A stretch of DNA of 62,719 nucleotides from an uncultured virus (IMG/VR IMGVR_UViG_3300007171_000012) (lineage: Duplodnaviria; Heunggongvirae; Uroviricota; Caudoviricetes): the IMG/VR virus record IMGVR_UViG_3300007171_000012; one strand, 5' to 3'. Below, piece after piece: positions 39,133 to 50,388 of this stretch. Numbering within the stretch: position 1 is the stretch's first letter; each line of letters opens with the position of its first letter. The notes beneath the pieces were generated by a model. It was not told where the DNA came from, ran no database searches, and saw nothing but the letters and a program-made list of their open reading frames with translations. Both the position numbers and the translations under genes were made by a program.

Positions 39133-39209
39133 GCTCTCATCGTCTAGTCGGGCAGGACACATGACTTTCAATCATGAAACGCAGGGTTCGATTCCCGCTG
39201 GGAGTGCCA
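39133..39209 (+). tRNA. tRNA-Glu(TTC)
   Basis: Cloverleaf; CATGA-cttTCaa-TCATG anticodon arm; CCA. Confidence 0.92.
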
Positions 39210-39355
39210 ATTTAGAATATCTAAAAATTCCTCATTGACAATGAGTTGAGTTTGTGATAGGATATTCTATACAGTTTGGAGCTTGCAAGCCCCAACTAAG
39301 TCTGCAAAGACGCAGAGACAGCTATTTATACCTGTCAGCTTGCTAAATTTTCAAT

Positions 39356-39432
39356 CGTGGGTAGGACAAGATGGTTAGTCAGGAGTCTCATAAGCTCTCT
39401 TCTGGGGGATTCAAGCGCCCCACCCGCAACCA
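39356..39432 (+). tRNA. tRNA-Met(CAT), initiator-like
   Basis: C1xA72 mismatch, ctcataa loop, atypical T loop, CCA. Confidence 0.8.
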
Positions 39433-39435
39433 ATT

Positions 39436-39514
39436 TTTGAGTGCTGTTAGATAAGGGATACTTCTTCAACTATTACTTGAAACCAATAAACCCCTTGTCG
39501 CTTGTTGCCTCAAA
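39436..39514 (+). ncRNA. Y RNA-like #1 (short, no tRNA-like module)
   Basis: TTTGAGTGC...TTGCCTCAAA bulged stem, GATACTTC motif; paralog of 51026-51094. Confidence 0.65.
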
Positions 39515-39525
39515 TGATTTTCAAT

Positions 39526-39602
39526 TGGCGGGCATGCAGTAGTGGTGCTGCGCGAGTCTCATAAGCTCGATTGTCTGGGTTCGACTCCCAGCCCTCCTAC
39601 CA
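39526..39602 (+). tRNA. tRNA-CAT (Met or Ile2)
   Basis: CGAG arm with ctcataa loop, GGTTCGACTCC, CCA; mismatched acceptor stem. Confidence 0.8.
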
Positions 39603-39683
39603 ATTTATTGTTAGTGTAAACATAACCATGAAGATCAGGGTTTCGGTCGCCTGATGTAAAAGAAAAGACCGTGCAATTTCAAA

Positions 39684-39753
39684 CGCTCGTTGGAGCCTGT
39701 GCATGTCGCGATCACGGGTAGCCTACAGGTGAAAAACCAAAGGCGAGCGACCA
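39684..39753 (+). ncRNA. orphan CCA-ended hairpin RNA
   Basis: CGCTCGT/GCGAGCG-ACCA acceptor-like stem with CCTGT/ACAGG inner stem; no cloverleaf. Confidence 0.45.
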
Positions 39754-39756
39754 ATT

Positions 39757-39856
39757 TATAAACAAAAAGATCCAGCTTCCGCAGGGCTGGTCGTGGAAGG
39801 CCCGCCTATCTAACAGGGCTGATAGCTTAAATGTCGTTAAAAGCGTTTTGTTTGTA
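39757..39856 (+). ncRNA. structured RNA resembling the 23S rRNA H88 (E-site) region
   Basis: Closing stem TATAAACAAAA/TTTTGTTTGTA; ordered motifs GATCC...GTGGAAGG...GCTTAA...TAAAAG. Confidence 0.45.
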
Positions 39857-39897
39857 GTTTTATTTGATTTTTTATTAAAACGGTGTAATATACTGTT

Positions 39898-40272
39898 GTG
39901 AATACAAAACAAAAAGGAAATATTGGGCTTGGAGTTGCAATTGCATATTTTACTAATCGTTTATTAACAGTTTCTATTCCAATTAACGATTCCCAACCTT
40001 ATGATTTAGTTGTCGAATTTGAAGATAAAAGTCTTCAAAAAATTCAAGTAAAAACAACATCATTTGTTTCTCAATATGGCATACCCTCGGTTGGATTGCG
40101 ATCTACTGGTGGAAATCAAAGTAGAAACTATGCGAAATACTTTGACAAAAATTCTTGCGATTATATTTTCGTTTATGTTTTAAATACAAATAATAGTTAT
40201 TTAATACCTAGTTGCGAATGCAATAAAAATACTATTAACTTGGGAACTAAATTTGAAAAATTTAAAATTTAA
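39898..40272 (+). CDS. free-standing PD-(D/E)XK homing-type endonuclease
   Basis: KG..G...AIA.F.....VS.P..D...YDLVV......KIQVKT; GTGTAA upstream. Confidence 0.8.
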   Translation: MNTKQKGNIGLGVAIAYFTNRLLTVSIPINDSQPYDLVVEFEDKSLQKIQVKTTSFVSQYGIPSVGLRSTGGNQSRNYAKYFDKNSCDYIFVYVLNTNNSYLIPSCECNKNTINLGTKFEKFKI

Positions 40273-40273
40273 A

Positions 40274-40365
40274 GGGTTCTAACAATAAGAATAGCTGGTG
40301 CTGTTAGGAAGCTGTAACCTTCCTCCCATTAGGGCAAGGAGTTCGATTCTGCCTAGAACCCACCA
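40274..40365 (+). tRNA. tRNA-Tyr(GTA), atypical D and T arms
   Basis: GGGTTCT/AGAACCC-ACCA, GGAAG-ctgtaac-CTTCC, variable arm. Confidence 0.75.
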
Positions 40366-40374
40366 ATTTTTTAT

Positions 40375-40466
40375 GGAAGTGTGGCAGAGCGGTCAATTGC
40401 ACTATCTTGGAAAGATAGAGGTCGCCAAATGGTGGCCCGTAGGTTCAAATCCTACCGCTTCCGCCA
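40375..40466 (+). tRNA. tRNA-Ser(GGA)
   Basis: Type II cloverleaf, G73, CCA. Confidence 0.93.
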
Positions 40467-40477
40467 ATTTTTTTAAT

Positions 40478-40555
40478 GGGGCTGTATCGGAACTGCCTTC
40501 TAAGCAGTGGCACCGTAAGGGAACGATGCAGGTTCGAATCCTGCCAGCCCCGCCA
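40478..40555 (+). tRNA. tRNA-Arg(TCT)-like lacking the D arm, with long variable region
   Basis: GGGGCTG/CAGCCCC-GCCA; only TATCGGA before ACTGC-cttctaa-GCAGT; canonical T arm. Confidence 0.7.
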
Positions 40556-40556
40556 T

Positions 40557-40916
40557 TTATTTTTCAAAAAAATGCCTTGTTCTATGACACATGCAACAAA
40601 GCAAAGCGCATTTATTTACTTCTTCAATACAACTTGATAAAGAAATCTTTCTCATTCTTTCCCAAACCATATCTTTTTGTTTCGGATCTTTGTGGTGGAA
40701 ATCGAAAAGATAATAATTTTGATTTGTCGCAACCAATTTACAATCTTCGCATTCAGATCCCTTATGGTCGATCATGTCGAGTTTGCGCTGAATCCAGCGG
40801 TCGCGGCAGTAGTTATTAAAACATTTTTTACAAAGAGAATTAGTTCGATTTTCTTTTCCTTTGCTGTAGAAGCAATTATCTGATTTTTCTTCTTTACAAG
40901 TGCTACAAATTTTCAT
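40557..40916 (-). CDS. HNH endonuclease (free-standing)
   Basis: CxxC...CxxC, G..C..C, FDFHH.DP..K, KCALLC..CHR.RH. Confidence 0.85.
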   Translation of the reverse strand: MKICSTCKEEKSDNCFYSKGKENRTNSLCKKCFNNYCRDRWIQRKLDMIDHKGSECEDCKLVATNQNYYLFDFHHKDPKQKDMVWERMRKISLSSCIEEVNKCALLCCMCHRTRHFFEK

Positions 40917-40961
40917 ATAAGTATTTACACTTGCTTAGTAGCAAAAAGACTAATTTTTTAT

Positions 40962-41051
40962 GGGTGTGTGGTCGAGTGGTTTATGGCGTCGGTCTTGAAA
41001 ACCGAAGGTGGTGAAAGCTGCCCGTGGGTTCAAATCCTACCGCACCCGCCA
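40962..41051 (+). tRNA. tRNA-Ser(TGA)
   Basis: Type II cloverleaf, CCA. Confidence 0.93.
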
Positions 41052-41060
41052 ATTTTCAAT

Positions 41061-41137
41061 CCCTGTCTGGTGTAAGTGGTCTGCACGATTCGCTGAAGAC
41101 GAGTAGGATGCCTGATCGAAACGGGCGACAGGGGCCA
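41061..41137 (+). tRNA. tRNA-Phe(GAA)
   Basis: ATTCG-ctgaaga-CGAGT; T loop ATCGAAA; CCA. Confidence 0.85.
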
Positions 41138-41245
41138 ATTTTTCAATTGACATTCATCTGAAAAGAGCCTATAGTGAACGCAACAGTAAGTCACATGCTT
41201 CGGCAGACTATGATAGCGGGCAAATCACATGTGATGAATATCAAA

Positions 41246-41320
41246 CGGGGTGAAGCTTTAATGGTGAAGCAGCAGGCTTTTAACTTGCAGAACTGGGATC
41301 GTTACCCAGCGCCCTGACCA
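41246..41320 (+). tRNA. tRNA-Lys(TTT)
   Basis: GCAGG-cttttaa-CTTGC; T loop ATCGTTA; CCA. Confidence 0.88.
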
Positions 41321-41328
41321 ATTTTTAT

Positions 41329-41405
41329 GCAACAAAAGCCACAGCGGACGGGCATCTGACTCTTACTCAGCTATCGTGTGGGTTCAACTCCCACTTGTTG
41401 CACCA
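41329..41405 (+). tRNA. tRNA-Lys(CTT)
   Basis: CTGA-ctcttac-TCAG; CCA. Confidence 0.82.
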
Positions 41406-41413
41406 TTTTCAAA

Positions 41414-41489
41414 TCCCAAGTAGCACAGCGGTAGTTGCGACTGGCTGTTAACCAGTATGTCGGTGGTTCGATCCCACCCTTGGGAGCCA
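41414..41489 (+). tRNA. tRNA-Asn(GTT)
   Basis: Canonical cloverleaf, CCA. Confidence 0.93.
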
Positions 41490-41496
41490 ATTTAAT

Positions 41497-41577
41497 TGTG
41501 GGAAGCGAATTATAGCACGATCAACAATTTCTCTTGCAAGAATGATCGGAGTGGTGAAAGTCCCTGTCTCACAGCCA
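41497..41577 (+). ncRNA. degenerate tRNA-like CCA-ended RNA
   Basis: TGTGGGA/TCTCACA-GCCA; extended CGATCA/TGATCG arm; no canonical D or T loops. Confidence 0.5.
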
Positions 41578-41585
41578 ATTTTTAC

Positions 41586-41659
41586 GGTCCATAAGCATTA
41601 TGGCGATGCACCCTCCTTGTAAGTGGGAGATGTCAGTTCGATTCTGACATGGGCCTCCA
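41586..41659 (+). tRNA. tRNA-Thr(TGT)
   Basis: Cloverleaf, cttgtaa loop, CCA. Confidence 0.9.
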
Positions 41660-41671
41660 TTTTTAAAAGAT

Positions 41672-41809
41672 TTATAGTGGTGACATGAGTTGGTTACTTC
41701 TATTCTAAAGACGAGGCGCAGGTTCGAATCCTGCCGCAACTGCCCATAGGTGAGAGCGTAGCTCAGTGGTTAGAGCGCGAAAAATACCAAATCAGAACAT
41801 TCCCTATAA
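41672..41809 (+). ncRNA. YrlA-type Y RNA #2 (permuted tRNA-like module)
   Basis: TTATAGTGG...TTCCCTATAA stem, GTTACTTC motif; T arm GCAGGTTCGAATCCTGC precedes D arm TAGCTCAGTGGTTAGAGC. Confidence 0.8.
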
Positions 41810-41813
41810 TAAT

Positions 41814-41888
41814 TGGACTATAGCTCAGAGGCAGAGCGCACGCCCGATAAGCGTGAAGTCGAGATTTCGAAATTCTCTAGTCCAACCA
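41814..41888 (+). tRNA. tRNA-Ile(GAT)
   Basis: CACGC-ccgataa-GCGTG (C33); CCA. Confidence 0.88.
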
Positions 41889-41947
41889 ATTTTTTCTTGA
41901 CAGTCACCAAAACGCCTCTTAATATGCGAACCAGTTTGGTGCTTAAT

Positions 41948-42022
41948 AGGCGCGTAGCTGAGTGGTTGTAGCACCTCCTTGATAAGGTGGAGACGCAGGT
42001 TCAATCCCTGCCGCGCCTACCA
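41948..42022 (+). tRNA. tRNA-Ile(GAT)
   Basis: Cloverleaf, ttgataa loop, CCA. Confidence 0.88.
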
Positions 42023-42039
42023 AATTTTCAAAAAACAGG

Positions 42040-42067
42040 TTGACAAAATCAGAAATATCTGCATAAT
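42040..42067 (+). promoter_or_regulatory. sigma70-type promoter of the large ncRNA
   Basis: TTGACA-N16-CATAAT. Confidence 0.7.
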
Positions 42068-42074
42068 CAATCAC

Positions 42075-43030
42075 ATCGCCGCGACGAACTAAGAGTTCTT
42101 CAAAGCGATCTTGGGAAAACAAAGAGTTTCCTTCGTAAAAAGTTCTTTAATATCATAAAAAATTTGCCCGCTTGGGGGCATTACAGGATAATCCAGAAGC
42201 GATTCTGGGAAAGGGATAAGGTTCCTACACCGCCCACTAATTTAGTTCGCTAAGTTAGCCCACCAAGCAAGCCGAGAGATACGACAATATAAGCCATTAA
42301 AACTTATGTTGTTGAAGCCTACGGGTCGAAGAGAGTAAAACAGTGAGGTCAACGATGTAGCTGGTTCTGAAAGGAAAACTCAAATGGGTCTGAAAGCATG
42401 AATCTCAAAGGGTAGTCATAAGTCAGAGTAGAGATACAAAGGCGAATGGCATGCTGAGAGGTTGCCTGAGAGTCAAATCGAGGGTAGTCTTGACTGCGAT
42501 GAAAAAGTAGCGATACTGATTCTAGTTGATGTGTTGTATTCTTGATTTTGAGAGATTTTGAGAGCAGCGTGGTTGCGCACATTGACGTAGGTTTCCATTT
42601 ATTTTGCTGGTTCGAGTCCAGCCTCCCCCGCCATCAGAGCATCCAGCTTATGCTTTGACGGGGGGAGTAGCCAAATGGGTAAAGGCAGTTGCATATTAAA
42701 CAACGTATAAATATTAAAAGCAAAAGACGTAACCCCGAACGCTCGAAAATCGACTAAGACAGAAGCGAAAGCAATTCTGTGCGAACCTTGGCTCGCAAAG
42801 CACAAGGCGTTTGATCAGAGAAGGAAATCTTGCAGGACGGCCATCCTCCGAGGTTCTAGAAATGATCGAGTAGAGTAAACGGTAAATCGCAAATGCCAGC
42901 GATTCATAAAATGGCGTCGATGACTGGATACTATCGAGAGGTAGTGGATAAGTAAGGAAATAGTGGCTTGGAATGCTGCTTAATAATCTTATGAAAGACT
43001 GGTCGCCCTAGCCTGTAATCTCAGGGCTTA
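42075..43030 (+). ncRNA. large (~950 nt) structured ncRNA, probably GOLLD-class
   Basis: No credible ORF, purine-rich with many hairpins, own promoter, inside a phage tRNA array, embedded tRNA-like module; class recalled from memory, not searched. Confidence 0.6.
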
Positions 43031-43095
43031 GATAACAATTTTCGATTGACTTCCCGCGCCTCTGATGCAAGCGTAATTCGGGAAGTGTTTTTAAA

Positions 43096-43170
43096 GCGTG
43101 TATCGTATAATGGTTATTATACAACGTTGCCAACGTTGATATGTCAGTTCGATTCTGACTACACGCACCA
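43096..43170 (+). tRNA. tRNA-Gly(GCC)
   Basis: CAACG-ttgccaa-CGTTG; CCA. Confidence 0.92.
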
Positions 43171-43180
43171 ATTTTCATAT

Positions 43181-43278
43181 CGTGCAGTTGCCTAGCTTGG
43201 TAAGGAGCCTGACTTGGAATCAGGTAGCGGGGACAAGAGTGTTTACCGTCGTGGGTTCGAATCCCACCTGCGCGACCA
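43181..43278 (+). tRNA. tRNA-Pro(TGG) with long variable arm
   Basis: CCTGA-cttggaa-TCAGG, ~26-nt variable region, canonical T arm, CCA. Confidence 0.8.
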
Positions 43279-43286
43279 ATTTTAAA

Positions 43287-43364
43287 TAGGTATTAGCGTA
43301 ACTTGGCTATCGCGCTACATTTGGGATGTAGAGATTATGGGTTCAAATCCCATATACCTAACCA
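43287..43364 (+). tRNA. tRNA-Pro(TGG)
   Basis: CTACA-tttggga-TGTAG; CCA. Confidence 0.9.
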
Positions 43365-43371
43365 ATTTATT

Positions 43372-43451
43372 TGCCTCGGCATCGGATGCTTGGTGATCCA
43401 CGCGCTAATCGCGGAAATGTTAATGCGGTTCGAATCCGCAGCTAGGCACCA
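43372..43451 (+). ncRNA. tRNA-like RNA with non-canonical anticodon arm
   Basis: D arm GGAT/ATCC, CGCG-ctaat-CGCG, perfect T arm TGCGGTTCGAATCCGCA, CCA. Confidence 0.6.
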
Positions 43452-43465
43452 GATTTCAAAAAAAC

Positions 43466-43540
43466 GGCCTGATCATATAACGGTTATTATGCACCCTTGG
43501 TATGGGTGATACTGGAGTTCGACTCTCCATCGGGCCTCCA
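43466..43540 (+). tRNA. tRNA-Thr(GGT)
   Basis: CACCC-ttggtat-GGGTG; CCA. Confidence 0.9.
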
Positions 43541-43553
43541 AACAATTTTCAAT

Positions 43554-43628
43554 GGGCGGTTAGTATAACGGAAGAATACTTGAATACGAATCAAGAGACG
43601 GCGGGTTCAATTCCCCCACTGCCTACCA
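43554..43628 (+). tRNA. tRNA-Arg(ACG)
   Basis: CTTGA-atacgaa-TCAAG; CCA. Confidence 0.85.
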
Positions 43629-43645
43629 GTTTTAATAAATTTTAA

Positions 43646-43720
43646 GGTCCATTAGTGTAAAGGAAGCATCACTAGATTGTCAATCTTGAGGAAGGGGATC
43701 GTTCCCCCTATGGACCGCCA
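43646..43720 (+). tRNA. tRNA-Asp(GTC)
   Basis: ttgtcaa loop, G73, T loop ATCGTTC, CCA. Confidence 0.87.
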
Positions 43721-43810
43721 ATTTCGCCGTAAAGCACAAGAGGTTAGTAACGCGCCTGATTACTGATTATGATGCGAGAGATCGGGCTTAGGGTTCTCAC
43801 GGCAATATAT

Positions 43811-43886
43811 GGGCGCACATGTTCCTTGGGGGCGATTGTCACTTGCAATGACGATGTGGCGAGTTCAATTCTCGTTGTGTCCACCA
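43811..43886 (+). tRNA. tRNA-Ala(TGC)
   Basis: G3:U70, cttgcaa loop, CCA; weak D arm. Confidence 0.82.
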
Positions 43887-44093
43887 TTTTTTTTACTTTA
43901 AAAAGCCGTGTTGGAGTGGCAACCAACTAGCCATAGGTGAATAAAATAGGCGAAGAGTAGCGGGTTGTTCCGCAAAACACTGTGGGTAATCCCCGCGATA
44001 GCAGTAGCGTTATTGGTGAATATATGGGAGTTTTTTGTTTGACAAAACGTAGATCATATGCTCTACTCTTCGGAGTAACCAACTGTCTAATTT

Positions 44094-44168
44094 GGGGCTA
44101 TGGCGCAATGGTAGCGCAGATCCTTTGCAAGGATAAGGTTGAGAGTTCGAATCTCTCTAGCTCCACCA
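44094..44168 (+). tRNA. tRNA-Ala(TGC)
   Basis: GGGGCTA/TAGCTCC-ACCA, canonical cloverleaf. Confidence 0.93.
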
Positions 44169-44177
44169 AATTTTCAA

Positions 44178-44302
44178 TGCGGTCTAGTCAAAATAAAACC
44201 GAATTAAAAGGCATTAAATCTCGGAATGCCCAAGAAGAAGGAGATTACGGGGTAATTCGGAGTCCCCAGCAAAGGCGTAAGTGACGATTCGCCACCGCAC
44301 CA
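44178..44302 (+). ncRNA. CCA-ended RNA with two predicted pseudoknots
   Basis: TGCGGT/ACCGCA-CCA; GGCATT/AATGCC with AATCTC/GAGATT; GGGG/CCCC with CCGAATTA/TAATTCGG. Confidence 0.6.
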
Positions 44303-44311
44303 ATTTCAAAC

Positions 44312-44385
44312 ATGCCGTTCGTCTAATGGTAAGACTACTGCCTCCAAAACAGAAAACGCGGGTTCGATTCCTGCACGGTATGCCA
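44312..44385 (+). tRNA. tRNA-Trp(CCA)
   Basis: ctccaaa loop, G73, CCA. Confidence 0.87.
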
Positions 44386-44393
44386 ATTTTTAT

Positions 44394-44469
44394 CGCGTCG
44401 TGGGGAGAATGGCTATCTCACTGCCTGCAAAGCAGATTCATGCTGGTTCAAGTCCAGTCGGCGCGTCCA
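44394..44469 (+). tRNA. tRNA-Cys(GCA)
   Basis: CTGC-ctgcaaa-GCAG, U73, CCA. Confidence 0.88.
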
Positions 44470-44507
44470 ATTTCTATTACTCATGAAATTCGTGTAATAA
44501 TGAGTAT

Positions 44508-44927
44508 ATGTCAAAAAAAGACTTAAAAGAAAAAAAATGCAAGAATTGTGGAGAGGTGAAATCTACTAAAGACTTCTATCCTCAAAAAGCTTATAATAAT
44601 GGTATAGTTTATGATACTTGGGATTGCTATTGCAAATCTTGTAGATTAGAAACTTCAGCCGAGCGAAGAAGGGCTTTAAAAAGAAAAGCTATAGAATATC
44701 TTGGTGGAAAATGCGCTGATTGTGGAGAATCAAGAGATATTCCATCTATTTATGATTTTCACCATTTAGATCCTAGCAAAAAAGATTTTTCAATTGGCAA
44801 ACAAGCAAAAAAATTTGATTCTGTGAAGAAAGAACTCGACAAATGTGTTCTTCTTTGTGCAAACTGTCACAGGATAAGACATTCTCAAAATCAAAAGGAG
44901 GTTGGCTTAGAAGCAGCCACGGATTGA
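44508..44927 (+). CDS. HNH endonuclease (free-standing)
   Basis: GGKCADCG...YDFHHLDPS.KDF...KCVLLCANCHR.RH. Confidence 0.87.
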   Translation: MSKKDLKEKKCKNCGEVKSTKDFYPQKAYNNGIVYDTWDCYCKSCRLETSAERRRALKRKAIEYLGGKCADCGESRDIPSIYDFHHLDPSKKDFSIGKQAKKFDSVKKELDKCVLLCANCHRIRHSQNQKEVGLEAATD

Positions 44928-45119
44928 GAATCCTCACGATTTATCGTGACCTTTAAAGAGTAGGACGAAGCACCCAATCCGTGCGAAATGCTAAATAATG
45001 TCGGGCCGTAAAGTGGCATATATTAGTGATGTGCTGTGGGGAAAATGTGGATAGTGATAAGGCACCCCCGAAACGGTAAGGCATATTCTCCTTTTGGCGT
45101 AGTAGCACACTTTTGATTT
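44888..45119 (+). ncRNA. mimic of the 23S rRNA GTPase-associated centre (H43/H44, L11 site) with two insertions
   Basis: AGGAGGTTGGCTTAGAAGCAGCCAC[ins]CCTTTAAAGAGT[ins]GCGTAGTAGCACAC, closed by AAATCAAAAG/CTTTTGATTT. Confidence 0.8.
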
Positions 45120-45123
45120 ATTT

Positions 45124-45585
45124 TTAATTTTGGGCTACGCTGCGACAAAGCTGAATAAATTCATCTGGCAACAGATTATGTTTGGCTTTATTCACGGCGG
45201 AAGTTGTCAAGACTAAGTTATCTAGATTTGAAGATCCTCCTCGGCTCTTTGGAATCTTATGGTCTAGTGAATAAGAAGAGGGAATAGATAAATTTATTGG
45301 TTGACTTGTAAAGTAACATGTCGGATTATCTCCGATATGCTCCAACAAATCAGCTAAAGAAAAGTCAATCGTGTTGCCGTATTTTTTGAAAGCTGTCATT
45401 TTACTTAATAAGTGCTGATTATGATAGCTATCTTTAAACCACGCTCTCTGTTTGGTTTTTCGTTCAGGGTTTAAATGATAGATAACAGTATAATAAGAAC
45501 ATCCTATTATTTCGGAGATTTCTTTATGATTGTGACCGAGATTTTTAAGTCTTTGCATTTCTGATAAATCGTATTTTAAATCCAT
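45124..45585 (-). CDS. HNH endonuclease with N-terminal HTH
   Basis: EISEIIGCS..TV.YHL; SLDHKIPKSRGG....DNL......N.AK. Confidence 0.82.
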   Translation of the reverse strand: MDLKYDLSEMQRLKNLGHNHKEISEIIGCSYYTVIYHLNPERKTKQRAWFKDSYHNQHLLSKMTAFKKYGNTIDFSLADLLEHIGDNPTCYFTSQPINLSIPSSYSLDHKIPKSRGGSSNLDNLVLTTSAVNKAKHNLLPDEFIQLCRSVAQN

Positions 45586-45629
45586 AAAAGTAATTACACT
45601 TGTTGTAATGAAAATAGAAATTTTACAAA

Positions 45630-45704
45630 GGGGAATTAGCTGAGTGGTAAAGCAACTCGTTTACACCGAGGAGATCAGCGGTTCGAATCCGTTATTCCCT
45701 ACCA
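45630..45704 (+). tRNA. tRNA-Val(TAC)
   Basis: CTCG-tttacac-CGAG; CCA. Confidence 0.92.
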
Positions 45705-45712
45705 ATTTTCAT

Positions 45713-45790
45713 GCGTCTGTAGCCCAACTGGCAGCAGGCAATAGATTAAGGGTCTATACAGTGTGGGTTCGAATCCCACCAGACGCACCA
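45713..45790 (+). tRNA. tRNA-Leu(AAG), short variable loop
   Basis: ATAGA-ttaaggg-TCTAT; CCA. Confidence 0.82.
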
Positions 45791-45804
45791 ATCTACAAAT
45801 TCAA

Positions 45805-46029
45805 ATGGCAAATAAAAACACATTAATAACCACCTCATGGTGTGGACCGTGCAAAATAATCAAAGACTTTTTAGCGAAAAATCCAAAAGATATTATTTTG
45901 ATTGACGCAGATGAAAATCAAGAGTATTGTAAAGACAATAACGTAAGAACAGTTCCAACTTTAATTGCGGATGATAAGCGCTTGACTGGCGCAAAAGATA
46001 TTATTGATTACCTTTTAACTCTCTCTTAA
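45805..46029 (+). CDS. thioredoxin/glutaredoxin-like protein
   Basis: WCGPC, VRTVPTL. Confidence 0.85.
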   Translation: MANKNTLITTSWCGPCKIIKDFLAKNPKDIILIDADENQEYCKDNNVRTVPTLIADDKRLTGAKDIIDYLLTLS

Positions 46030-46045
46030 AGAGAAACTTTTCATG

Positions 46046-46165
46046 AAATAGGATCAACTTTGACGGAGTAATTAACCGTGAGTGTTTGGATAGACAACGG
46101 AAGATGTAAGGTTCGATTCCCAACAGGCTCTGGTGAGTATGCATTTTCTAGGAACGGCGTGAAAT
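46046..46165 (+). ncRNA. orphan structured RNA with a T-loop motif
   Basis: GATCA/TGATC closing stem, internal GGTTCGATTCC, 3' T tract. Confidence 0.4.
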
Positions 46166-46199
46166 CCCAGACTGATCTGATTTTTTTGTATTTTATAAT

Positions 46200-46277
46200 G
46201 GCTGCGTAGTCCAACTGGTAGGAGACGTTTGACTTAGAATCAAAACAGTGTCGGTTCGAATCCGACCGCAGCTACCA
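46200..46277 (+). tRNA. tRNA-Leu(TAG), short variable loop
   Basis: TTTGA-cttagaa-TCAAA; CCA. Confidence 0.9.
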
Positions 46278-46319
46278 TTTTTCGCTTGCTTTGTAAATTA
46301 TTTTTGGCATGATCAAAGC

Positions 46320-46667
46320 ATGACGACAATCAAGGATTCAAATGGCGTTGAGTTAACTTATGATGAAACAATCAATGTTGGTGATATTGTTACCGCTTAT
46401 CACAGTGGGTATCATAAAATTACAGAGATAACCCCACGCTACGAAATAGGCGGCAGTCCTCGCGTTCCATTATTTACATATGTTCTTGTTGCTAAAGCTG
46501 ATGGCACGCTTGCAAAAAGAAGCTCTATTACTAAAGAATGTGATGCGAGCTTTTGCCGCCATGTTAAACAAGAACTAGCAAAAACTATCACTAAAAAAAA
46601 GGAAGAACTCGCTCGTCTTGAATCTCTTCAAATTATCTTCGAAAATAATAATGGCTCGTTACGCTAA
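46320..46667 (+). CDS. hypothetical protein
   Basis: ORF with ATG at 46320; 3' end overlaps a tRNA-Leu. Confidence 0.6.
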   Translation: MTTIKDSNGVELTYDETINVGDIVTAYHSGYHKITEITPRYEIGGSPRVPLFTYVLVAKADGTLAKRSSITKECDASFCRHVKQELAKTITKKKEELARLESLQIIFENNNGSLR

Positions 46668-46729
46668 TTGGCAGTGCGGCAATACTCAAAATATTGTGGT
46701 TTTCAGTTCGAATCTGAAACGAGCTACCA
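46653..46729 (+). tRNA. tRNA-Leu(CAA), short variable loop
   Basis: CAATA-ctcaaaa-TATTG; CCA. Confidence 0.87.
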
Positions 46730-46742
46730 TTTAAAATAAAAA

Positions 46743-46772
46743 AAAGACCGTCTTGTAAAAGGCGGTCTTTTT
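46743..46772. terminator. bidirectional intrinsic terminator
   Basis: AAAGACCGTC-ttgtaaaa-GGCGGTCTTT flanked by A and T tracts between convergent genes. Confidence 0.8.
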
Positions 46773-46792
46773 ATATAGATTGATTGTCAATA

Positions 46793-47200
46793 TCAGTTTA
46801 AAGTCAAAAGATACTTGGTCTTATTAAGAGAGCCAAGAATTTCATCCCTAATATTTAAAAGATCAGTATTGGAAAAATAACGCTCCCAAGATTGAAGCAC
46901 TGAAATATTATCATTTAAAAACGAAACGAATGCCGCAGAATCAAGGTTGACGAAACCCATTCCAGCACCGCTGAAATCGAAGCGTCCATAAGCTCCTTGG
47001 TAAGTTTCCACAAACTCGTCAATAGACTCGCTCAAAGCGCTGTAAAGCTCGCCAAAAGCATGATGCTGGGCAAATGAGTAAGTTTGCCAATGGAAAATTT
47101 TAAATTGAATCTGTAATTGAATCAACTTGGAAACAATTCCAGATTGACCCATTGCGGCGATAGACTCAGAAAAGTCTAGTTCAAGTGATTTTTTATTCAT
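46793..47200 (-). CDS. ferritin/Dps-like four-helix bundle protein
   Basis: KIFHWQT.S.A.H.AF.ELY......D.FVE..QG.YGR; N.RDEIL..LNK.KYLLTL. Confidence 0.75.
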   Translation of the reverse strand: MNKKSLELDFSESIAAMGQSGIVSKLIQLQIQFKIFHWQTYSFAQHHAFGELYSALSESIDEFVETYQGAYGRFDFSGAGMGFVNLDSAAFVSFLNDNISVLQSWERYFSNTDLLNIRDEILGSLNKTKYLLTLN

Positions 47201-47283
47201 AAAATATGTTACACTTTTTTCTGTCAAATTCTACAGATTTGTATTGACTATGACGCAAAATGGTGTAGAATGATTTCATAAAC

Positions 47284-47361
47284 GGCTCCATAGCCCAACT
47301 GGCAGCAGGCAACAGACTTAAAATCTGTAAAGTGTGGGTTCGAATCCCACTGGAGCTACCA
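47284..47361 (+). tRNA. tRNA-Leu(TAA), short variable loop
   Basis: ACAGA-cttaaaa-TCTGT; CCA. Confidence 0.9.
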
Positions 47362-47379
47362 ACTTTCATTATAATTAAA

Positions 47380-47452
47380 AGGGGTGTAGCAGAACGGTTA
47401 ATGCGGGCCTCTCATAAAGGTTAGATAATGGGTTCAACTCCCATCGCCCCTA
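47380..47452 (+). tRNA. tRNA-CAT (Met or Ile2), no encoded CCA
   Basis: AGGGGTG/CGCCCCT, ctcataa loop; 3' end overlaps the HNH stop codon. Confidence 0.85.
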
Positions 47453-47986
47453 TTTCATATTTTTATCTGGATTATGAATTTCAAAATGGCAATTAGCGCA
47501 TAGTAATTTACATTTTCTAAATTCTTTTAAAATTGATTCCCAATTTGTATTGGAGAGAATTCTTGAGTCTAATGAAAAAGATTTGTTTTGTGGGTCATTA
47601 TGATGAAATTGCAGGGCAGAAGAATTTTTTTTGTAACCGCAATTGGAGCATTTTCCTCCAGCCATTTTTATTAATTCTAATTTTCTACTAAGTGCTTTGT
47701 TTTTTTGACGTTCATTTGTATTAGGCTGGCTATAATAAGTATTTTTTGATTTACACTCAATTGAGCAATAAAACTTTTGTTGACCAATTAATTGTTTTGA
47801 GCAGCACTTGCAGCTTCTTCCATTTAATAATGTTTTTAAATCTTTTGCTTGAGGAGGATTGTTGGTATTTAACCCCAATTTTCTCAACCAATATCTAATA
47901 GTTGTTTGAGAACAATCCATTTCTTTTGCTATTTGGTAAGTAGATAAATTTTTTGAAATTAAATCTTGCAATTTTTCATAGTTCAT
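47450..47986 (-). CDS. HNH endonuclease with N-terminal HTH
   Basis: STYQIAKEM.CSQTTIRYWL; GGKCSNCG...LQFHH.DP..K...KCKLLCANCH.E.H. Confidence 0.87.
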   Translation of the reverse strand: MNYEKLQDLISKNLSTYQIAKEMDCSQTTIRYWLRKLGLNTNNPPQAKDLKTLLNGRSCKCCSKQLIGQQKFYCSIECKSKNTYYSQPNTNERQKNKALSRKLELIKMAGGKCSNCGYKKNSSALQFHHNDPQNKSFSLDSRILSNTNWESILKEFRKCKLLCANCHFEIHNPDKNMK

Positions 47987-48032
47987 ATATATTATTACAC
48001 AATTCATAACAACTTGTGAACTATTAAATAAT

Positions 48033-48136
48033 GGGAGTGTTGCTAATGTTGGCCATAGGGCGAAACTTATAATCTCGTAGAGCAACGGCTAGATAAGCCG
48101 TTAGTAACGTGGGTTCGATTCCCACCACTCCTACCA
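48033..48136 (+). tRNA. tRNA-Ile(TAT) with very long variable arm
   Basis: GGGAGTG/CACTCCT-ACCA, cttataa loop, AACGGCT/AGCCGTT variable stem. Confidence 0.75.
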
Positions 48137-48148
48137 CTTTCAAACATC

Positions 48149-48397
48149 ATGGAAATACATGCAACGCAACATTTAAAAGTTCAAATTTCAGATCAAGAGC
48201 AGAAAAGAATTGTTCTGGAGTATTTTTATTCTAAATTTAAATGGAAAAAAGATTATTTTATTAAAAATGGTCAAGTGATGGAAGATGTAGAATATTCTAC
48301 TTCTCATCGTTGGACAGATGAAGAATTTGTGCGGGAAGCTCAAGAAGATGATTATTTCGTGGCTGGAATCATCAAATTGATTAATAAATTGCCTTGA
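48149..48397 (+). CDS. hypothetical protein
   Basis: ORF. Confidence 0.6.
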   Translation: MEIHATQHLKVQISDQEQKRIVLEYFYSKFKWKKDYFIKNGQVMEDVEYSTSHRWTDEEFVREAQEDDYFVAGIIKLINKLP

Positions 48398-48427
48398 TTT
48401 ATTCGAGATTAACATTACTATCATTTG

Positions 48428-49075
48428 ATGAAATTCAATTTTCTTAAAGATTGTGGTGAGAATTTTTGCAAGTTCTTTGATTGGACTGTTGATTATCTCT
48501 GTCAACATAAAAAGAAAATTGTAATCGCCAATAGCCGAAACATAGATCTCGGAGATTCTAAATGTTCAGGATGGTGCGACGGAGAAACAATTACCGTCGC
48601 CAAAAAAAATCCATTATTTGAGCAGGTTTATTGTCATGAATTTTCTCACATGACTCAATGCATCGAAAAGCATGCCGTCTGGAAAGATGAATATGAGTTT
48701 TGGAAGCATTTAGACAAGCAAAATCTTTGCCCCAAAAATTGGGCGGCAGTAATGGAGGTTATAGCTTTAGAACATGATTGCGAAAAGAGATCTTTAGCGT
48801 TTGGTAAAAAATGGAAACTTTTCGATACCGAAAAGTATGCGCAGCAAGCTAATCTTTATTTGTTTTATTATCAATACGTTTATTTAAAACAAAAATGGAT
48901 CGACTCGACCTCCATCTATCATCCAATTCTCTTGGGGAAAATGCCCAAAAAGATTGCTCCTCTTTCGTCTTTTAATTCAATTAATATGCCTCTGATGGCA
49001 TTATTTGACGAATGCCTTGAAAAAAAGGGAAAATTCTACAAAAAAGGCTTTACATGGAATAAATTGAAGCTATAA
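48428..49075 (+). CDS. HExxH metallopeptidase-like protein
   Basis: HEFSH...ALE.DCE. Confidence 0.55.
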   Translation: MKFNFLKDCGENFCKFFDWTVDYLCQHKKKIVIANSRNIDLGDSKCSGWCDGETITVAKKNPLFEQVYCHEFSHMTQCIEKHAVWKDEYEFWKHLDKQNLCPKNWAAVMEVIALEHDCEKRSLAFGKKWKLFDTEKYAQQANLYLFYYQYVYLKQKWIDSTSIYHPILLGKMPKKIAPLSSFNSINMPLMALFDECLEKKGKFYKKGFTWNKLKL

Positions 49076-49082
49076 TAAGTGC

Positions 49083-49595
49083 ATGAGCGTTTACGTCATT
49101 GGCGATCCACATCTTGGACATCAAAACATTGCTAAATATCGCAAGTTTGTATCTTCTTCGGAAGATAATACTCGCCTCATCCAAGAAGATTGGACTAAGC
49201 GCATCAACAAAAATGATGTCGTTTATGTTCTTGGCGATGCAGCATTCGATTCCCATTCTTTAGCTTTGTTTGGCAATTTGAAGGGTCGTAAGATTTTGAT
49301 TAAAGGCAATCATGATGACTTGGTTGACACGCGCGATCAATTGAATGTTTTCGAAGAAATTCACGGAATCATCAAATACAAAGGAATGTGGCTCAGTCAT
49401 TGCCCGATTCATCCTGATGAATTGCGCAAGTGCAAACTGAACGTTCACGGTCATGTTCATATGCATACAATCATGAAAGGTTGGGGGCCGTGGCGTAAAG
49501 AAGATCCTCGTTATGTGAATACTTGTGTTGATGTGGTTTACCCTAAATTTGGGACTTGTTTTTTAACACTTGATTATTTGAAGAGTTTGGTGTAA
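49083..49595 (+). CDS. calcineurin-like metallophosphoesterase
   Basis: D.HLGH, LGD, GNHD, SH.P, HGHVH. Confidence 0.9.
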   Translation: MSVYVIGDPHLGHQNIAKYRKFVSSSEDNTRLIQEDWTKRINKNDVVYVLGDAAFDSHSLALFGNLKGRKILIKGNHDDLVDTRDQLNVFEEIHGIIKYKGMWLSHCPIHPDELRKCKLNVHGHVHMHTIMKGWGPWRKEDPRYVNTCVDVVYPKFGTCFLTLDYLKSLV

Positions 49596-49603
49596 TATAA
49601 AAT

Positions 49604-50233: not shown

Positions 50234-50387
50234 ATTTGTAAGTCGCTGCGTATCGCAGATTTCTTCAGAATACAAAGATAATAAGCAAGCAGTAGCAATT
50301 TGCTACAATCAATTCAAAGAAGCAAAAGCATCAGCAGATGGTGTCGTAGATCTCGGTAATGATGAAATGCTTATTTTAAAAGATTAA
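50190..50387 (+). CDS. small conserved phage protein (PIP.P...E....FVSRC...QAVAICY)
   Basis: ORF with a motif common in phage small proteins. Confidence 0.65.
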   Translation: MPPIPTPKNKEKRNEFVSRCVSQISSEYKDNKQAVAICYNQFKEAKASADGVVDLGNDEMLILKD

Positions 50388-50388
50388 T

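What the first reader, a model, noticed from the sequence alone, without database searches (positions are those of the whole stretch)
42606..42704. Circularly permuted tRNA module embedded in the giant ncRNA
Seen order: T arm GCTGG-TTCGAGT-CCAGC, 3' acceptor strand CTCCCCC-GCCA, a hairpin TCAGAGCAT/ATGCTTTGA, 5' acceptor strand GGGGGAG, D arm TAGCCAAATGGGTAAAGGCA, then a possible GTTG/CAAC arm. Unlike YrlA modules it retains an internal NCCA and a pre-tRNA-like 5' junction. Inference: RNase P and 3' processing could remove the hairpin and give a two-piece, potentially aminoacylatable giant RNA, as in permuted tmRNA; alternatively it is a tRNA-elbow decoy displayed on the RNA.
Basis: partly seen in the sequence, partly recalled or inferred. 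Interest (0 to 1): 0.75.

Follow-up and report, generated by a model that had tools for sequence, protein, structure and literature searches.

The report
Back-to-front tRNA inside phage GOLLD RNA
A freshwater phage's giant cage-forming GOLLD RNA carries, in the hinge between its two halves, a complete tRNA encoded in back-to-front order; the same arrangement is conserved in seven other GOLLD RNAs, so the tRNA looks like a working part of the giant RNA and not a passenger.

Summary
Window 42606-42704 holds every part of a tRNA in the order T arm, 3' acceptor strand, GCCA, 27-nt spacer with a hairpin, 5' acceptor strand, D arm, anticodon arm. The break lies in the variable loop.

Evidence that it is a permuted tRNA:
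- ARAGORN calls no tRNA in the native order.
- It calls one in 4 of 4 and 7 of 7 in-silico re-closures, and in 0 of 200 controls.
- The module lies in the inter-domain linker of a GOLLD RNA (RF02032, 138.2 bits, E 3.6e-38). In 12 of 78 other GOLLD loci that site holds an ordinary tRNA.

Targeted scans found seven more distinct GOLLD RNAs with the same permuted tRNA:
- 95% of cells pair, and 15 of 21 pairs change on both sides.
- NCCA follows the acceptor strand in 7 of 8.
- The spacers are unconserved, 5-27 nt long.

Reading, inferred and not shown: RNase P and 3' trimming cut out the spacer. GOLLD then becomes two chains clasped by a tethered tRNA with a free CCA end, as in M. smegmatis YrlA and two-piece tmRNA.

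Against this, one homologue has no CCA, a 95% relative has ACA, and no RNA ends were seen.

It is not a member of YrlA or tmRNA. I found no paper describing it. This scan noted the same kind once before on other DNA (e1-6153614).

The parts
42040..42067 (+). sigma-70-like promoter candidate just after tRNA-Ile and ahead of the GOLLD 5' domain
   Evidence: 11 of 12 consensus matches with a 16-nt spacer. 4 sites were found in the region against 2.2 expected. A consensus match only.
42070..42523 (+). GOLLD 5' (variable) domain; boundaries inferred
   Evidence: It lies between tRNA-Ile (ends 42022) and the start of the Rfam match. Contigs of two RNA libraries cover 42176-42590, which does not prove transcription.
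42524..43027 (+). GOLLD RNA: last 5'-side hairpin, linker and conserved 3' domain (full Rfam model 1-416)
   Evidence: RF02032 138.2 bits (gathering score 150), E 3.6e-38. The near-identical record G001 gives the same score.
42586..42605 (+). A/U-rich single-stranded linker entering the tRNA at the variable-loop position
   Evidence: Unaligned linker of the GOLLD model. A closing helix with 42705-42716 is not better than chance.
42606..42622 (+). T arm (5-bp stem, loop TTCGAGT)
   Evidence: 100% of cells paired in 7 homologues, and 3 of 5 pairs change on both sides.
42623..42629 (+). 3' strand of the acceptor stem
   Evidence: Pairs 7 of 7 with 42661-42667. All 7 pairs change on both sides among homologues, with 100% of cells paired.
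42630..42633 (+). discriminator G73 and CCA
   Evidence: NCCA stands at this place in 7 of 8 distinct GOLLD modules. The 95% relative in run X6 reads A for C at 42631.
42634..42660 (+). spacer between the CCA and the mature 5' end, with a 9-pair hairpin (42634-42658); the predicted excised piece
   Evidence: The hairpin is in the MFE and centroid folds. The spacer is not conserved: 5, 6, 8, 9, 13 and 18 nt without a hairpin in the other CCA-bearing modules.
42661..42667 (+). 5' strand of the acceptor stem; the predicted RNase P site is between 42660 and 42661
   Evidence: Cleavage is inferred from the 7-bp acceptor/T-arm stack and the M. smegmatis YrlA precedent. It was not observed.
42668..42687 (+). 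U8, A9, D arm (42670-42686, GG in its loop) and residue 26
   Evidence: In the D stem 2 of 4 pairs change on both sides; the fourth pair is mostly unpaired, as is common at tRNA positions 13-22.
42688..42704 (+). anticodon arm (5-pair stem with one C.A, 7-nt loop, anticodon ATT)
   Evidence: 97% of cells paired and 3 of 5 pairs change on both sides. U at loop place 2 and a purine at place 6 in 7 of 7 aligned modules.
42705..42716 (+). A/U-rich linker leaving the tRNA towards the conserved start of the GOLLD 3' domain

Best explanation
Shown. Window 42606-42704 is a complete, evolutionarily conserved tRNA whose gene order is circularly permuted at the variable loop. The GOLLD chain enters at the T arm, runs through the 3' acceptor strand and NCCA, a spacer, the 5' acceptor strand and the D arm, and leaves after the anticodon arm. 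It occupies the single-stranded linker between the GOLLD 5' and 3' domains. That is the site where other GOLLD RNAs carry an ordinary tRNA, and published cryo-EM work places this linker inside the 12-14-mer cage.

Inferred.
- The junction between CCA and the 5' acceptor strand is built like the junction between two neighbouring tRNA genes of the same phages.
- Host RNase P should therefore cut at 42660|42661, and 3' trimming should stop at the CCA (42633), removing the spacer.
- Because of the permutation this would not release a tRNA. It would turn GOLLD into two chains. The 5' domain would end in T arm, acceptor strand and CCA. The 3' domain would begin with acceptor strand, D arm and anticodon arm.
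- The two chains would be clasped by the 7-bp acceptor stem and the D/T-loop elbow.
- The tethered tRNA would have its CCA end, elbow and anticodon loop all free.

Functional consequence, inferred. The tRNA acts in cis as a part of GOLLD, as a handle or bait for tRNA-binding machinery. It is not a tRNA gene hitch-hiking for expression.
For: (1) Permuted cloverleaf.
- ARAGORN of 8 modules as tRNA after in-silico re-closure and 0 of 8 in native order.
- For the window: 4 of 4 closures, against 0 of 200 controls.

(2) Conservation. Eight distinct GOLLD RNAs carry the module: the window, L267, L279, L295, L334, L354, L390 and L257.
- RF02032 scores are 134-199 bits.
- Model R1 scores 7 of them at 82-105 bits and L257 at 61 bits.
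- Tandem-tRNA junctions and YrlA-like modules score 46 bits or less.

(3) Covariation on 7 aligned modules.
- 95.2% of cells pair.
- 15 of 21 pairs change on both sides.
- 0 of 500 shuffles reach the observed values.
- Slid controls pair at 46-57%.

(4) Same site as ordinary embedded tRNAs. 12 of 78 other GOLLD loci have one ending just before the 3' domain. Published passages say the same.

(5) Processing signals.
- The acceptor stem is 7 bp in 8 of 8.
- NCCA is present in 7 of 8, although no search pattern required it.
- Spacers are unconserved in length and sequence, 5-27 nt.
- The phages' own tRNAs encode CCA followed by short A/T-rich spacers: window 29 of 32, L267 7 of 7, L279 2 of 3.

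(6) Precedent. M. smegmatis YrlA, a permuted tRNA-like RNA with a 7-bp acceptor stem, is cut by RNase P in vitro and in vivo. Its 5' half then carries CCA (PMC4201824, passages).

(7) In the 95% relative (run X6), the 3 substitutions and 1 deletion inside the module all fall in unpaired places.
Against: - No RNA end was observed. The RNA-library contigs laid (X13, X16) stop before the module, and contigs cannot show ends.
- L354 has no CCA and closes its acceptor stem with a 6-nt loop. The X6 relative reads ACA for CCA. An encoded CCA is therefore dispensable in 2 lineages.
- The window's spacer holds a stable hairpin that the other seven lack.
- Published work places the linker inside the cage and proposes that embedded tRNAs are shielded from maturation (PMC12990946).
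- A pseudo-tRNA inside a mycobacterial GOLLD was not detected as a separate RNA (PMC6582537).
- The window's anticodon (ATT) and its C.A pair would be odd for a decoding tRNA.
- The covariation count was made on an alignment fitted to the model's structure. Three of the eight modules were found with a pattern that fixed the T-loop sequence.
Confidence: 0.5

Rival explanations
1. Uncleaved tRNA mimic. The module folds as a tRNA but stays covalently closed. It is displayed on, or inside, the GOLLD cage as a decoy or docking site, for example for anticodon nucleases, modification enzymes, the CCA-adding enzyme, EF-Tu or ribosomes. The NCCA and spacer would be inherited from its origin, a junction between two tandem tRNA copies.
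For: - L354 keeps all four arms but has a 6-nt closing loop without CCA.
- The X6 relative has ACA.
- The window's spacer is a stable hairpin.
- The anticodon-loop architecture (U at place 2, purine at place 6) holds in 7 of 7, with anticodons that differ in nearly every module (ATT, CTT, GAT, AAG, TAG, ACG, TGA twice).
- Published views hold that the linker points into the cage and that embedded tRNAs are kept from maturation.
- The embedded pseudo-tRNA was not detected separately in M. aubagnense.
Against: - NCCA is kept in 7 of 8 modules whose acceptor stems have changed at all 7 pairs. That is hard to explain without selection.
- Closed tRNA mimics of phages next to TROVE genes mostly use tight 4-7-nt loops: 6 of 7 lack NCCA.
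- A folded 7-bp acceptor plus T arm is the main RNase P determinant (stated in PMC4201824).
Confidence: 0.32
2. Precursor of a free tRNA. The flanking linkers are cut and the ends ligated, for instance by the phage's RtcB, to close the variable loop. RNase P and 3' trimming then open the acceptor end. This is how permuted tRNA genes of the red alga Cyanidioschyzon merolae are matured (recalled, not read here).
For: - The window encodes RtcB (61180-62412, PF01139, E 3.2e-64).
- All eight modules give full cloverleaves with sense anticodons when re-closed.
Against: - The complete 123.6-kb record that holds L295 has no RtcB (0 of 3 records searched).
- No conserved helix or motif joins the two flanks.
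- The window's anticodon ATT with a C.A pair is not a plausible decoder.
- A free tRNA would be far simpler to encode in normal order, as in 12 of 78 other GOLLD linkers.
Confidence: 0.05
3. A YrlA-type Y RNA module that recruits the phage's Ro60 (TROVE) protein to GOLLD.
For: - T arm, acceptor, D arm order as in YrlA, with a weak RF02553 match (21.7 bits).
- The window encodes a TROVE protein (51451-53001, PF05731, E 1e-17).
- The T arm of the YrlA-like module in L123 is identical in sequence to this one.
Against: - The score is far below the gathering score of 69.
- The permutation point differs and there is no long stem leading to a Ro60-binding helix.
- The module lies 8.7 kb from the TROVE gene, which has YrlA-like modules of its own directly upstream.
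- 0 of 5 records of TROVE-bearing relatives have a GOLLD.
- 0 of 3 records with permuted GOLLD modules have TROVE, one of them complete.
Confidence: 0.05
4. Decaying remnant of two tandem tRNA genes, or a chance look-alike, with no function.
For: - Tandem identical tRNAs give the same local pattern and were the false-positive class of my scans (L236, L454, L064).
- No close paralogue among the window's 32 tRNAs.
Against: - Conserved in 8 distinct GOLLD RNAs at the same site, with compensatory changes in all four stems.
- 0 of 200 controls.
- Changes in the 95% relative avoid the stems.
Confidence: 0.03

Closest known systems
Ordinary tRNAs embedded in the GOLLD inter-domain linker (Weinberg 2009 as cited in PMC6582537; tRNA-Phe in J13/15 of Mycolicibacterium GOLLD, PMC12990946; bioRxiv 10.1101/2024.12.08.627333)
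   Same: Same host RNA and same insertion site. 12 of 78 GOLLD loci here have a tRNA ending just before the 3' domain. The cultured Phaeobacter phage MD18 has tRNA-Arg there. In a tree of 3' domains, 7 of 8 permuted and 12 of 12 ordinary-tRNA GOLLDs share one weakly supported half and are interleaved.
   Different: - Gene order is permuted, so trimming cannot release the tRNA and GOLLD attaches at the variable loop, not at the acceptor ends.
- NCCA is encoded here, whereas most of the ordinary embedded tRNAs sampled lack it.
- The permuted modules resemble one another (49-86% in the 5' part, 58-92% in the 3' part) more than they resemble the ordinary embedded tRNAs (36-59% and 40-71%).
YrlA, the tRNA-like bacterial and phage Y RNA (Rfam RF02553; Chen et al. 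2014, PMC4201824), especially M. smegmatis YrlA
   Same: - T arm, acceptor, D arm order.
- A 7-bp acceptor stem.
- In M. smegmatis, RNase P cleavage and a CCA end, giving a two-piece RNA that stays together.
- Common in phages; YrlA-like modules lie beside this window's own TROVE gene.
   Different: - Permuted at the anticodon loop, with a long stem to the Ro60-binding site. Here the break is in the variable loop and the anticodon hairpin is intact.
- The host RNA is GOLLD, not a Y RNA.
- No link to Ro60.
- Score 21.7 against a gathering score of 69.
Two-piece tmRNA from circularly permuted ssrA genes (Rfam RF04321, RF01850, RF01849)
   Same: The gene order is acceptor piece ending in CCA, then an excised spacer, then a piece starting with the 5' acceptor strand. 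The two chains are held by the tRNA-like domain. The models match only the junction.
   Different: - No tag reading frame or pseudoknots.
- G3-C70, not G3.U70.
- Full D and anticodon arms.
- Scores 19-24 bits against gathering scores of 47-84.
- ARAGORN calls no permuted tmRNA here.
Circularly permuted tRNA genes of Cyanidioschyzon merolae (recalled, not read here)
   Same: The 3' part of the tRNA is encoded upstream of the 5' part, joined through the acceptor ends.
   Different: Those yield free tRNAs through a circular intermediate made by the eukaryotic/archaeal splicing machinery. Here the flanks are the two halves of a 1-kb structured RNA, and no joint signal was found.

Membership tests
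GOLLD RNA (RF02032) | Covariance-model score at or above Rfam's gathering score (150 bits) | tested here: inconclusive
   138.2 bits, E 3.6e-38, full model 1-416. Six of the seven homologous carriers score 150.4-198.8; L257 scores 134.2.
GOLLD RNA (RF02032) | Conserved 3'-domain motifs, and a place in a phage tRNA array | tested here: met
   The window matches the 3'-domain pattern used. 30 tRNAs and a tmRNA lie around it.
GOLLD RNA (RF02032) | Assembly into a 10-14-mer cage | not testable with these tools
   Known from cryo-EM of other members.
tRNA (RF00005 / ARAGORN) | Contiguous cloverleaf in 5'-to-3' order | tested here: not met
   No call at 42606-42704 by ARAGORN or Rfam. Native order gave 0 of 8.
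tRNA (RF00005 / ARAGORN) | All four arms with the conserved T-loop, GG in the D loop, U8, U33, R37 and NCCA | tested here: met
   Re-closed in silico, 8 of 8 are called tRNA. Covariation; loops.
tRNA (RF00005 / ARAGORN) | Decoding function or aminoacylation | not testable with these tools
   Anticodon ATT and a C.A pair in the window. Anticodons differ among homologues.
YrlA (RF02553) | Score at or above the gathering score (69 bits) | tested here: not met
   21.7 bits.
YrlA (RF02553) | T arm, closed acceptor stem, D arm, enclosed by the anticodon-stem equivalent that leads to the Ro60-binding helix | tested here: not met
   The order of arms is shared. Here, though, the anticodon arm is a local hairpin and the flanks form no helix better than chance.
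YrlA (RF02553) | Encoded beside a Ro60 (TROVE) gene | tested here: not met
   The module is 8.7 kb from the TROVE gene. 0 of 3 records with permuted GOLLD modules have TROVE.
Two-piece (permuted) tmRNA (RF04321, RF01850) | Gathering score, tag reading frame, and G3.U70 | tested here: not met
   19.2 against 47 and 24.1 against 84 bits, at the junction only. ARAGORN calls only the standard tmRNA at 50389-50782. The third acceptor pair is G-C.
Two-piece (permuted) tmRNA (RF04321, RF01850) | Spacer between CCA and the 5' acceptor strand is excised, leaving two chains | not testable with these tools
   The arrangement is present in the sequence. No ends were observed.
Permuted tRNA genes (C. merolae type) | Circular intermediate and ligation of the outer ends to give a free tRNA | tested here: inconclusive
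   No conserved joint helix. RtcB is present in the window but absent from a complete carrier genome.

The most novel reading that the evidence does not exclude
GOLLD cages are tRNA-presenting machines. In this subgroup RNase P opens the permuted tRNA, so each protomer of the 12-14-mer carries a non-releasable tRNA with a free CCA end. That end is repaired or charged by host enzymes. The result would be a multivalent tethered (aminoacyl-)tRNA particle that engages ribosomes, EF-Tu or tRNA-targeting defence nucleases during infection. The permutation would be the device that lets the tRNA be fully matured without leaving GOLLD.
Probability: 0.12. Interest if true: 0.9.

Novelty: new variant of a known kind. 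Interest (0 to 1): 0.72.

Why it matters
GOLLD is one of the largest bacterial and phage RNAs. It is now known to form cages, and it still has no known function. Ordinary tRNAs in its linker could be passengers that merely share a transcript. A permuted tRNA cannot be released by normal processing. It is nevertheless conserved with compensatory changes, an intact anticodon-loop architecture and, in 7 of 8 cases, an NCCA.

That argues that the tRNA shape itself is a working part of GOLLD. It also gives concrete, cheap tests: RNase P cleavage at one predicted bond, two predicted RNA sizes, and a CCA end.

If the cut occurs, this would be a third natural class of two-piece RNAs made from permuted tRNA-like genes, after two-piece tmRNA and M. 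smegmatis YrlA, and the first inside a cage-forming RNA.

Tried and rejected
- **Exact 25-nt pattern of the module in viral contigs.** 0 hits.
- **blastn of the window's GOLLD against GenBank phages.** No match. blastn against the 119 other GOLLD loci gave only 2 short hits.
- **Relatives through the TROVE protein.** 17 loci were found, most with classical YrlA-like modules, none with a GOLLD within 10 kb. 0 of 5 whole records have one.
- **Pattern 'T loop, 80-110 nt, AGCAAAAG'.** 118 loci, unspecific: 1 with a GOLLD 3' motif and no new permuted module.
- **Genome-contig scan.** 56 loci, 0 GOLLD and 0 permuted modules.
- **Pattern from the conserved hairpin plus T loop.** 4 loci: 3 re-finds and 1 chance hit in a repeat-rich coding region.
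- **Closing helix between the two flanks (a 'variable arm').** By eye it looked covarying. Per sequence, 19-97% of shuffles do as well. Rejected as unsupported.
- **Origin from one of the window's own tRNAs.** No close paralogue among 32.
- **Link to phage RtcB or Ro60.** 0 of 3 carrier records, one of them complete; two further loci are not held.
- **RNA evidence.** Contigs of RNA libraries X13 and X16 cover 42176-42590 only, and none covers the module or the 3' domain. Contigs cannot show ends and DNA may be present in such libraries, so nothing is concluded.
- **Cultured phages.** Six queries (window, L279, L295, L267, L354, L257). Only roseobacter phages have related GOLLDs, either with an ordinary tRNA-Arg (MD18, DSS3_MAL1) or, in DSS3P8, the one other record I examined, with no R1 match and no tRNA call in the linker. 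No cultured carrier of the permuted form was found.
- **L316.** It looked like a long-spacer variant but has no GOLLD match at E 1e-4. Dropped.
- It would have parsed the eight modules by hand and did not run. The pair counts were made with the alignment and model tools instead.
- **Papers not seen.** Morgado 2020 (PMC7549688) is not held. Weinberg 2009 and its supplements were not seen and might show such inserts.
Full report
**1. What is there.**

The window is part of a phage genome. The nearest held record is a 93-kb IMG/VR contig sharing 98% of sampled words. The genes are phage tail, helicase and HNH endonuclease genes. Bases 39133-53380 hold an array of 30 tRNA genes and a standard tmRNA, all on the + strand.

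The 1.07-kb gap between tRNA-Ile (ends 42022) and tRNA-Gly (starts 43096) has no convincing reading frame. It matches the GOLLD covariance model over its full length at 42524-43027:
- 138.2 bits and E 3.6e-38.
- This is below Rfam's gathering score of 150.

**2. The observation.**

The sequence shows, in this order:
- T arm 42606-42622
- 3' acceptor strand 42623-42629
- G-CCA 42630-42633
- a 27-nt spacer with a 9-pair hairpin
- 5' acceptor strand 42661-42667
- U8 and A9
- D arm 42670-86
- residue 26
- an anticodon arm 42688-42704

Evidence that this is a permuted tRNA:
- ARAGORN and Rfam's tRNA model call nothing here.
- When a script re-joined the 5' part to the 3' part through the natural flanking bases, ARAGORN called a tRNA with anticodon ATT in 4 of 4 and 7 of 7 closures.
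- It called none in 200 controls with a shuffled 5' part.
- T arm, acceptor stem and inner hairpin are in the MFE and centroid folds, both of the module and of the whole RNA.
- Folding energy alone is unremarkable (z -1.67).

Weak Rfam matches are to the junction region of permuted tmRNAs (19-24 bits) and to YrlA (21.7 bits). All are far below their gathering scores. The break of the permutation lies in the variable loop.

**3. The site is the known tRNA site of GOLLD.**

Published passages:
- A Mycolicibacterium GOLLD holds tRNA-Phe in the single-stranded J13/15 (PMC12990946).
- A mycobacterial GOLLD holds a pseudo-tRNA that was not detected as a separate RNA (PMC6582537).

A pattern scan for a GOLLD 3'-domain motif gave 119 viral loci, and flanks were fetched for 80 of them. 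Of the 78 loci other than this phage's own record with at least 900 bases upstream, 12 have an ordinary tRNA:
- Eleven were found by ARAGORN, eleven by a T-arm scan; the union is 12.
- Each ends just before the 3' domain, 242-324 nt upstream of the motif.
- The window's module spans 338-240 nt upstream, the same place.
- None of the 78 had a permuted layout.

**4. The permuted form recurs and is conserved.**

I scanned for a T loop 305-335 nt upstream of the 3'-domain motif. That distance excludes the ordinary embedded tRNAs.

| Collection | Loci returned |
|---|---|
| viral contigs | 51 |
| metagenome contigs | 104 |
| genome contigs | 56 |

Most hits were chance combinations with ordinary tRNAs. 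Seven further distinct sequences are GOLLD RNAs with the same back-to-front tRNA in the linker:

| Sequence | RF02032 bits |
|---|---|
| L267 (= L301 = L086) | 198.8 |
| L279 (= L368) | 188.5 |
| L295 (= L357) | 150.4 |
| L334 (= L355) | 192 |
| L354 | 188 |
| L390 (= L401) | 187.3 |
| L257 (= L296) | 134.2 |

L257's module lies outside the scanned distance and was found only by my model. None came from the 56 genome-contig loci.

A covariance model (R1) separates these modules from the false-positive classes:
- 82-105 bits for seven modules, and 61 bits for L257.
- 46 bits or less for tandem-tRNA junctions and YrlA-like modules.

Pair counts on the seven modules aligned to the model:
- 95.2% of 146 cells form standard pairs.
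- 15 of 21 pairs show changes on both sides, including all 7 acceptor pairs.
- 0 of 500 shuffles reach any of the measures.
- Sliding the partners by 1-3 columns gives 46-57% paired.
- Caveat: the alignment is fitted to the structure, and seven sequences are few.

ARAGORN calls all 8 re-closed modules as tRNA and none in native order. The anticodons are ATT, CTT, GAT, AAG, TAG, ACG, TGA and TGA. The 7-nt anticodon loop has U at its second place and a purine at its sixth in 7 of 7 aligned modules.

The T loop reads TTCGAGT in 8 of 8. For three of them (L334, L354, L390) the search pattern fixed it.

**5. The junction.**

Directly after the 3' acceptor strand, 7 of 8 modules have N-CCA. No pattern asked for it. 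It is followed by a spacer of 27 (window), 8, 9, 13, 6, 5 or 18 nt with no conserved sequence. Only the window's spacer folds into a hairpin.

The exception, L354, closes the acceptor stem with a 6-nt loop and has no CCA.

The phages' ordinary tRNA genes encode CCA followed by short A/T-rich spacers:
- Window: 29 of 32.
- L267: 7 of 7. L279: 2 of 3.

So the junction looks like the boundary between two neighbouring tRNA genes. That also suggests an origin by tandem duplication and loss of the outer parts.

For comparison, seven YrlA-like modules lie within about 1 kb upstream of TROVE genes in six related phage loci. Six are closed by 4-7-nt loops without NCCA, and one (L124) has CCCA plus 8 nt.

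**6. A close relative.**

One search found 20 public runs holding parts of the stretch. They are labelled aquatic, wastewater, soil, drinking-water, freshwater, groundwater, outdoor and sediment metagenomes. Four runs were laid:
- **X6 (DNA).** A contig covers the whole 1061 bases with 47 substitutions and 5 indels. Inside the module the listed differences are 42616 G>A (T loop), 42631 C>A (CCA becomes ACA), 42644 C>T (hairpin loop) and one G fewer in the D loop. All stems are intact. Forty of the 47 substitutions are listed, and the list ends at 42799, so I take the unlisted ones to lie further on.
- **X5.** A contig is identical over 42550-42794.
- **X13 and X16 (RNA libraries).** Contigs cover only 42176-42590. 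Nothing can be concluded about transcription or ends.

**7. What it most likely does.**

Shown: a conserved, complete tRNA fold attached to GOLLD through its variable loop, at the linker between the two domains.

Inferred:
- RNase P recognises the 12-bp acceptor/T-arm stack and cuts at 42660|42661.
- 3' trimming stops at CCA.
- GOLLD becomes two chains clasped by the tRNA.

The precedent is M. smegmatis YrlA. It has a 7-bp acceptor stem, is cut by RNase P in vitro and in vivo, and then carries CCA on its 5' half, with both halves remaining in the Ro60 particle (PMC4201824, passages).

The permutation matters. For an ordinary embedded tRNA, the same enzymes would release the tRNA and sever GOLLD. 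Here the tRNA stays, with its CCA end, elbow and anticodon loop free.

I give this 0.5. The main rival (0.32) is that the module stays closed and acts as a displayed tRNA mimic. Supporting that rival:
- L354 and the ACA variant.
- The window's hairpin.
- The published idea that the cage shields linker tRNAs.

Either way the tRNA acts in cis. That is the firmest functional inference.

**8. Rivals with little support.**
- **Ro60 recruitment.** The TROVE gene (51451-53001) has its own YrlA-like modules directly upstream. 0 of 5 TROVE-relative records have GOLLD. 0 of 3 carrier records have TROVE, one of them complete.
- **Cut-and-ligate maturation to a free tRNA by RtcB.** RtcB is in the window but in 0 of 3 carrier records. 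No joint helix was found.
- **Remnant or chance.** Refuted by the conservation.

**9. Evolution.**

A maximum-likelihood tree was built from 116 GOLLD 3' domains:
- 7 of 8 permuted and 12 of 12 ordinary-tRNA GOLLDs fall in one half of the tree, with weak support (65/87).
- They are interleaved there, and well-supported branches force at least 4 changes.
- The window sits on a long branch whose place is unsure.
- Rows from short loci are labelled 'none' only because their linker was not fetched.

The permuted modules are more like each other than like the ordinary embedded tRNAs. This fits one origin of the permuted cassette followed by exchange between GOLLDs. It does not prove it.

**10. Known or new.**

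Four full-text searches found no paper that links GOLLD with a permuted tRNA or with YrlA-type modules:
- GOLLD + tRNA
- GOLLD + permuted
- GOLLD + YrlA
- 'permuted tRNA' + bacteriophage

The hits for 'permuted' refer to group II introns.

Weinberg 2009 and Morgado 2020 were not available to me, and their supplements might show such inserts.

This scan's own notes record the same kind of thing once before, in a salt-lake phage (e1-6153614). They also record a freshwater phage GOLLD 'with a built-in tRNA-like piece' (e1-6029458). No sequence look-alike of my module is in those notes. They are unchecked notes, not independent evidence.

I class the finding as a new variant of known kinds: tRNA in the GOLLD linker, and permuted tRNA-like modules of the YrlA and two-piece tmRNA type.

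**11. Cultured systems.**

Six blastn queries against GenBank phages found no carrier of the permuted form. Related GOLLDs occur in roseobacter phages:
- Phaeobacter phage MD18 and DSS3_MAL1 have an ordinary tRNA-Arg in the linker.
- DSS3P8, the one other record I examined, has no R1 match and no tRNA call in its linker; vB_RpoS-V10 matched only the hairpin upstream of the linker and was not looked at further.
- In MD18 and DSS3P8 a permuted alpha-type tmRNA follows GOLLD.

Noticed in passing
window 51276-51470: Two YrlA-like tRNA mimics (T arm followed by D arm) lie directly upstream of the TROVE/Ro60 gene. The first has a short closed acceptor stem; the second has none. The second overlaps the ATG at 51451, so the true start of the Ro60 gene is probably further downstream (the PHROG match starts at residue 82). 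Model R1 gives 22.5 bits at 51276-51372.
   Followed up: partly
window 50788-50897: Right after the standard tmRNA lies a 110-nt tRNA-like RNA. Its 7-bp acceptor stem ends in ACCA and it has two T arms in between. It matches the tmRNA model at 20.7 bits through the two ends only. Its nature is unknown.
   Followed up: no
window 51451-53001 and 61180-62412: The phage encodes a Ro60 (TROVE, E 1e-17) and an RtcB RNA ligase (E 3.2e-64) near its tRNA array, tmRNA and GOLLD. Together they form an RNA-repair and quality-control gene set like the bacterial rsr-yrlA-rtcB loci.
   Followed up: partly
window 42040-42067: A near-consensus sigma-70-type promoter (11 of 12) lies between tRNA-Ile and the GOLLD 5' domain. 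GOLLD may have its own start inside the tRNA array.
   Followed up: no
window 43181-43278 and 48033-48133: Two over-long tRNA genes. One is a 98-nt tRNA-Pro with a long extra arm. The other is a 101-nt tRNA seen only by Rfam (38.5 bits), with an insertion.
   Followed up: no
L124 5343-5404: A YrlA-like module just upstream of a phage TROVE gene has CCCA plus an 8-nt spacer between its acceptor strands. It is the only 1 of 7 such modules with an NCCA, so CCA-bearing permuted modules also occur outside GOLLD.
   Followed up: no
L021 and L045 (linker tRNAs, about 320-246 nt upstream of the 3' motif): Among the ordinary tRNAs embedded in GOLLD linkers, two have stop-codon anticodons (TCA and CTA). 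They are possible suppressor tRNAs carried inside GOLLD.
   Followed up: no
L471 1600-2015 (Phaeobacter phage MD18) and L472 1830-2216 (Roseobacter phage DSS3P8): In these cultured roseobacter phages a circularly permuted, alpha-proteobacterial-type tmRNA gene (107-119 bits) follows GOLLD within about 200 nt.
   Followed up: no
window 43050-43086: A weak match to the abiF RNA motif (25.1 bits, gathering score 37) lies between the GOLLD 3' end and tRNA-Gly.
   Followed up: no
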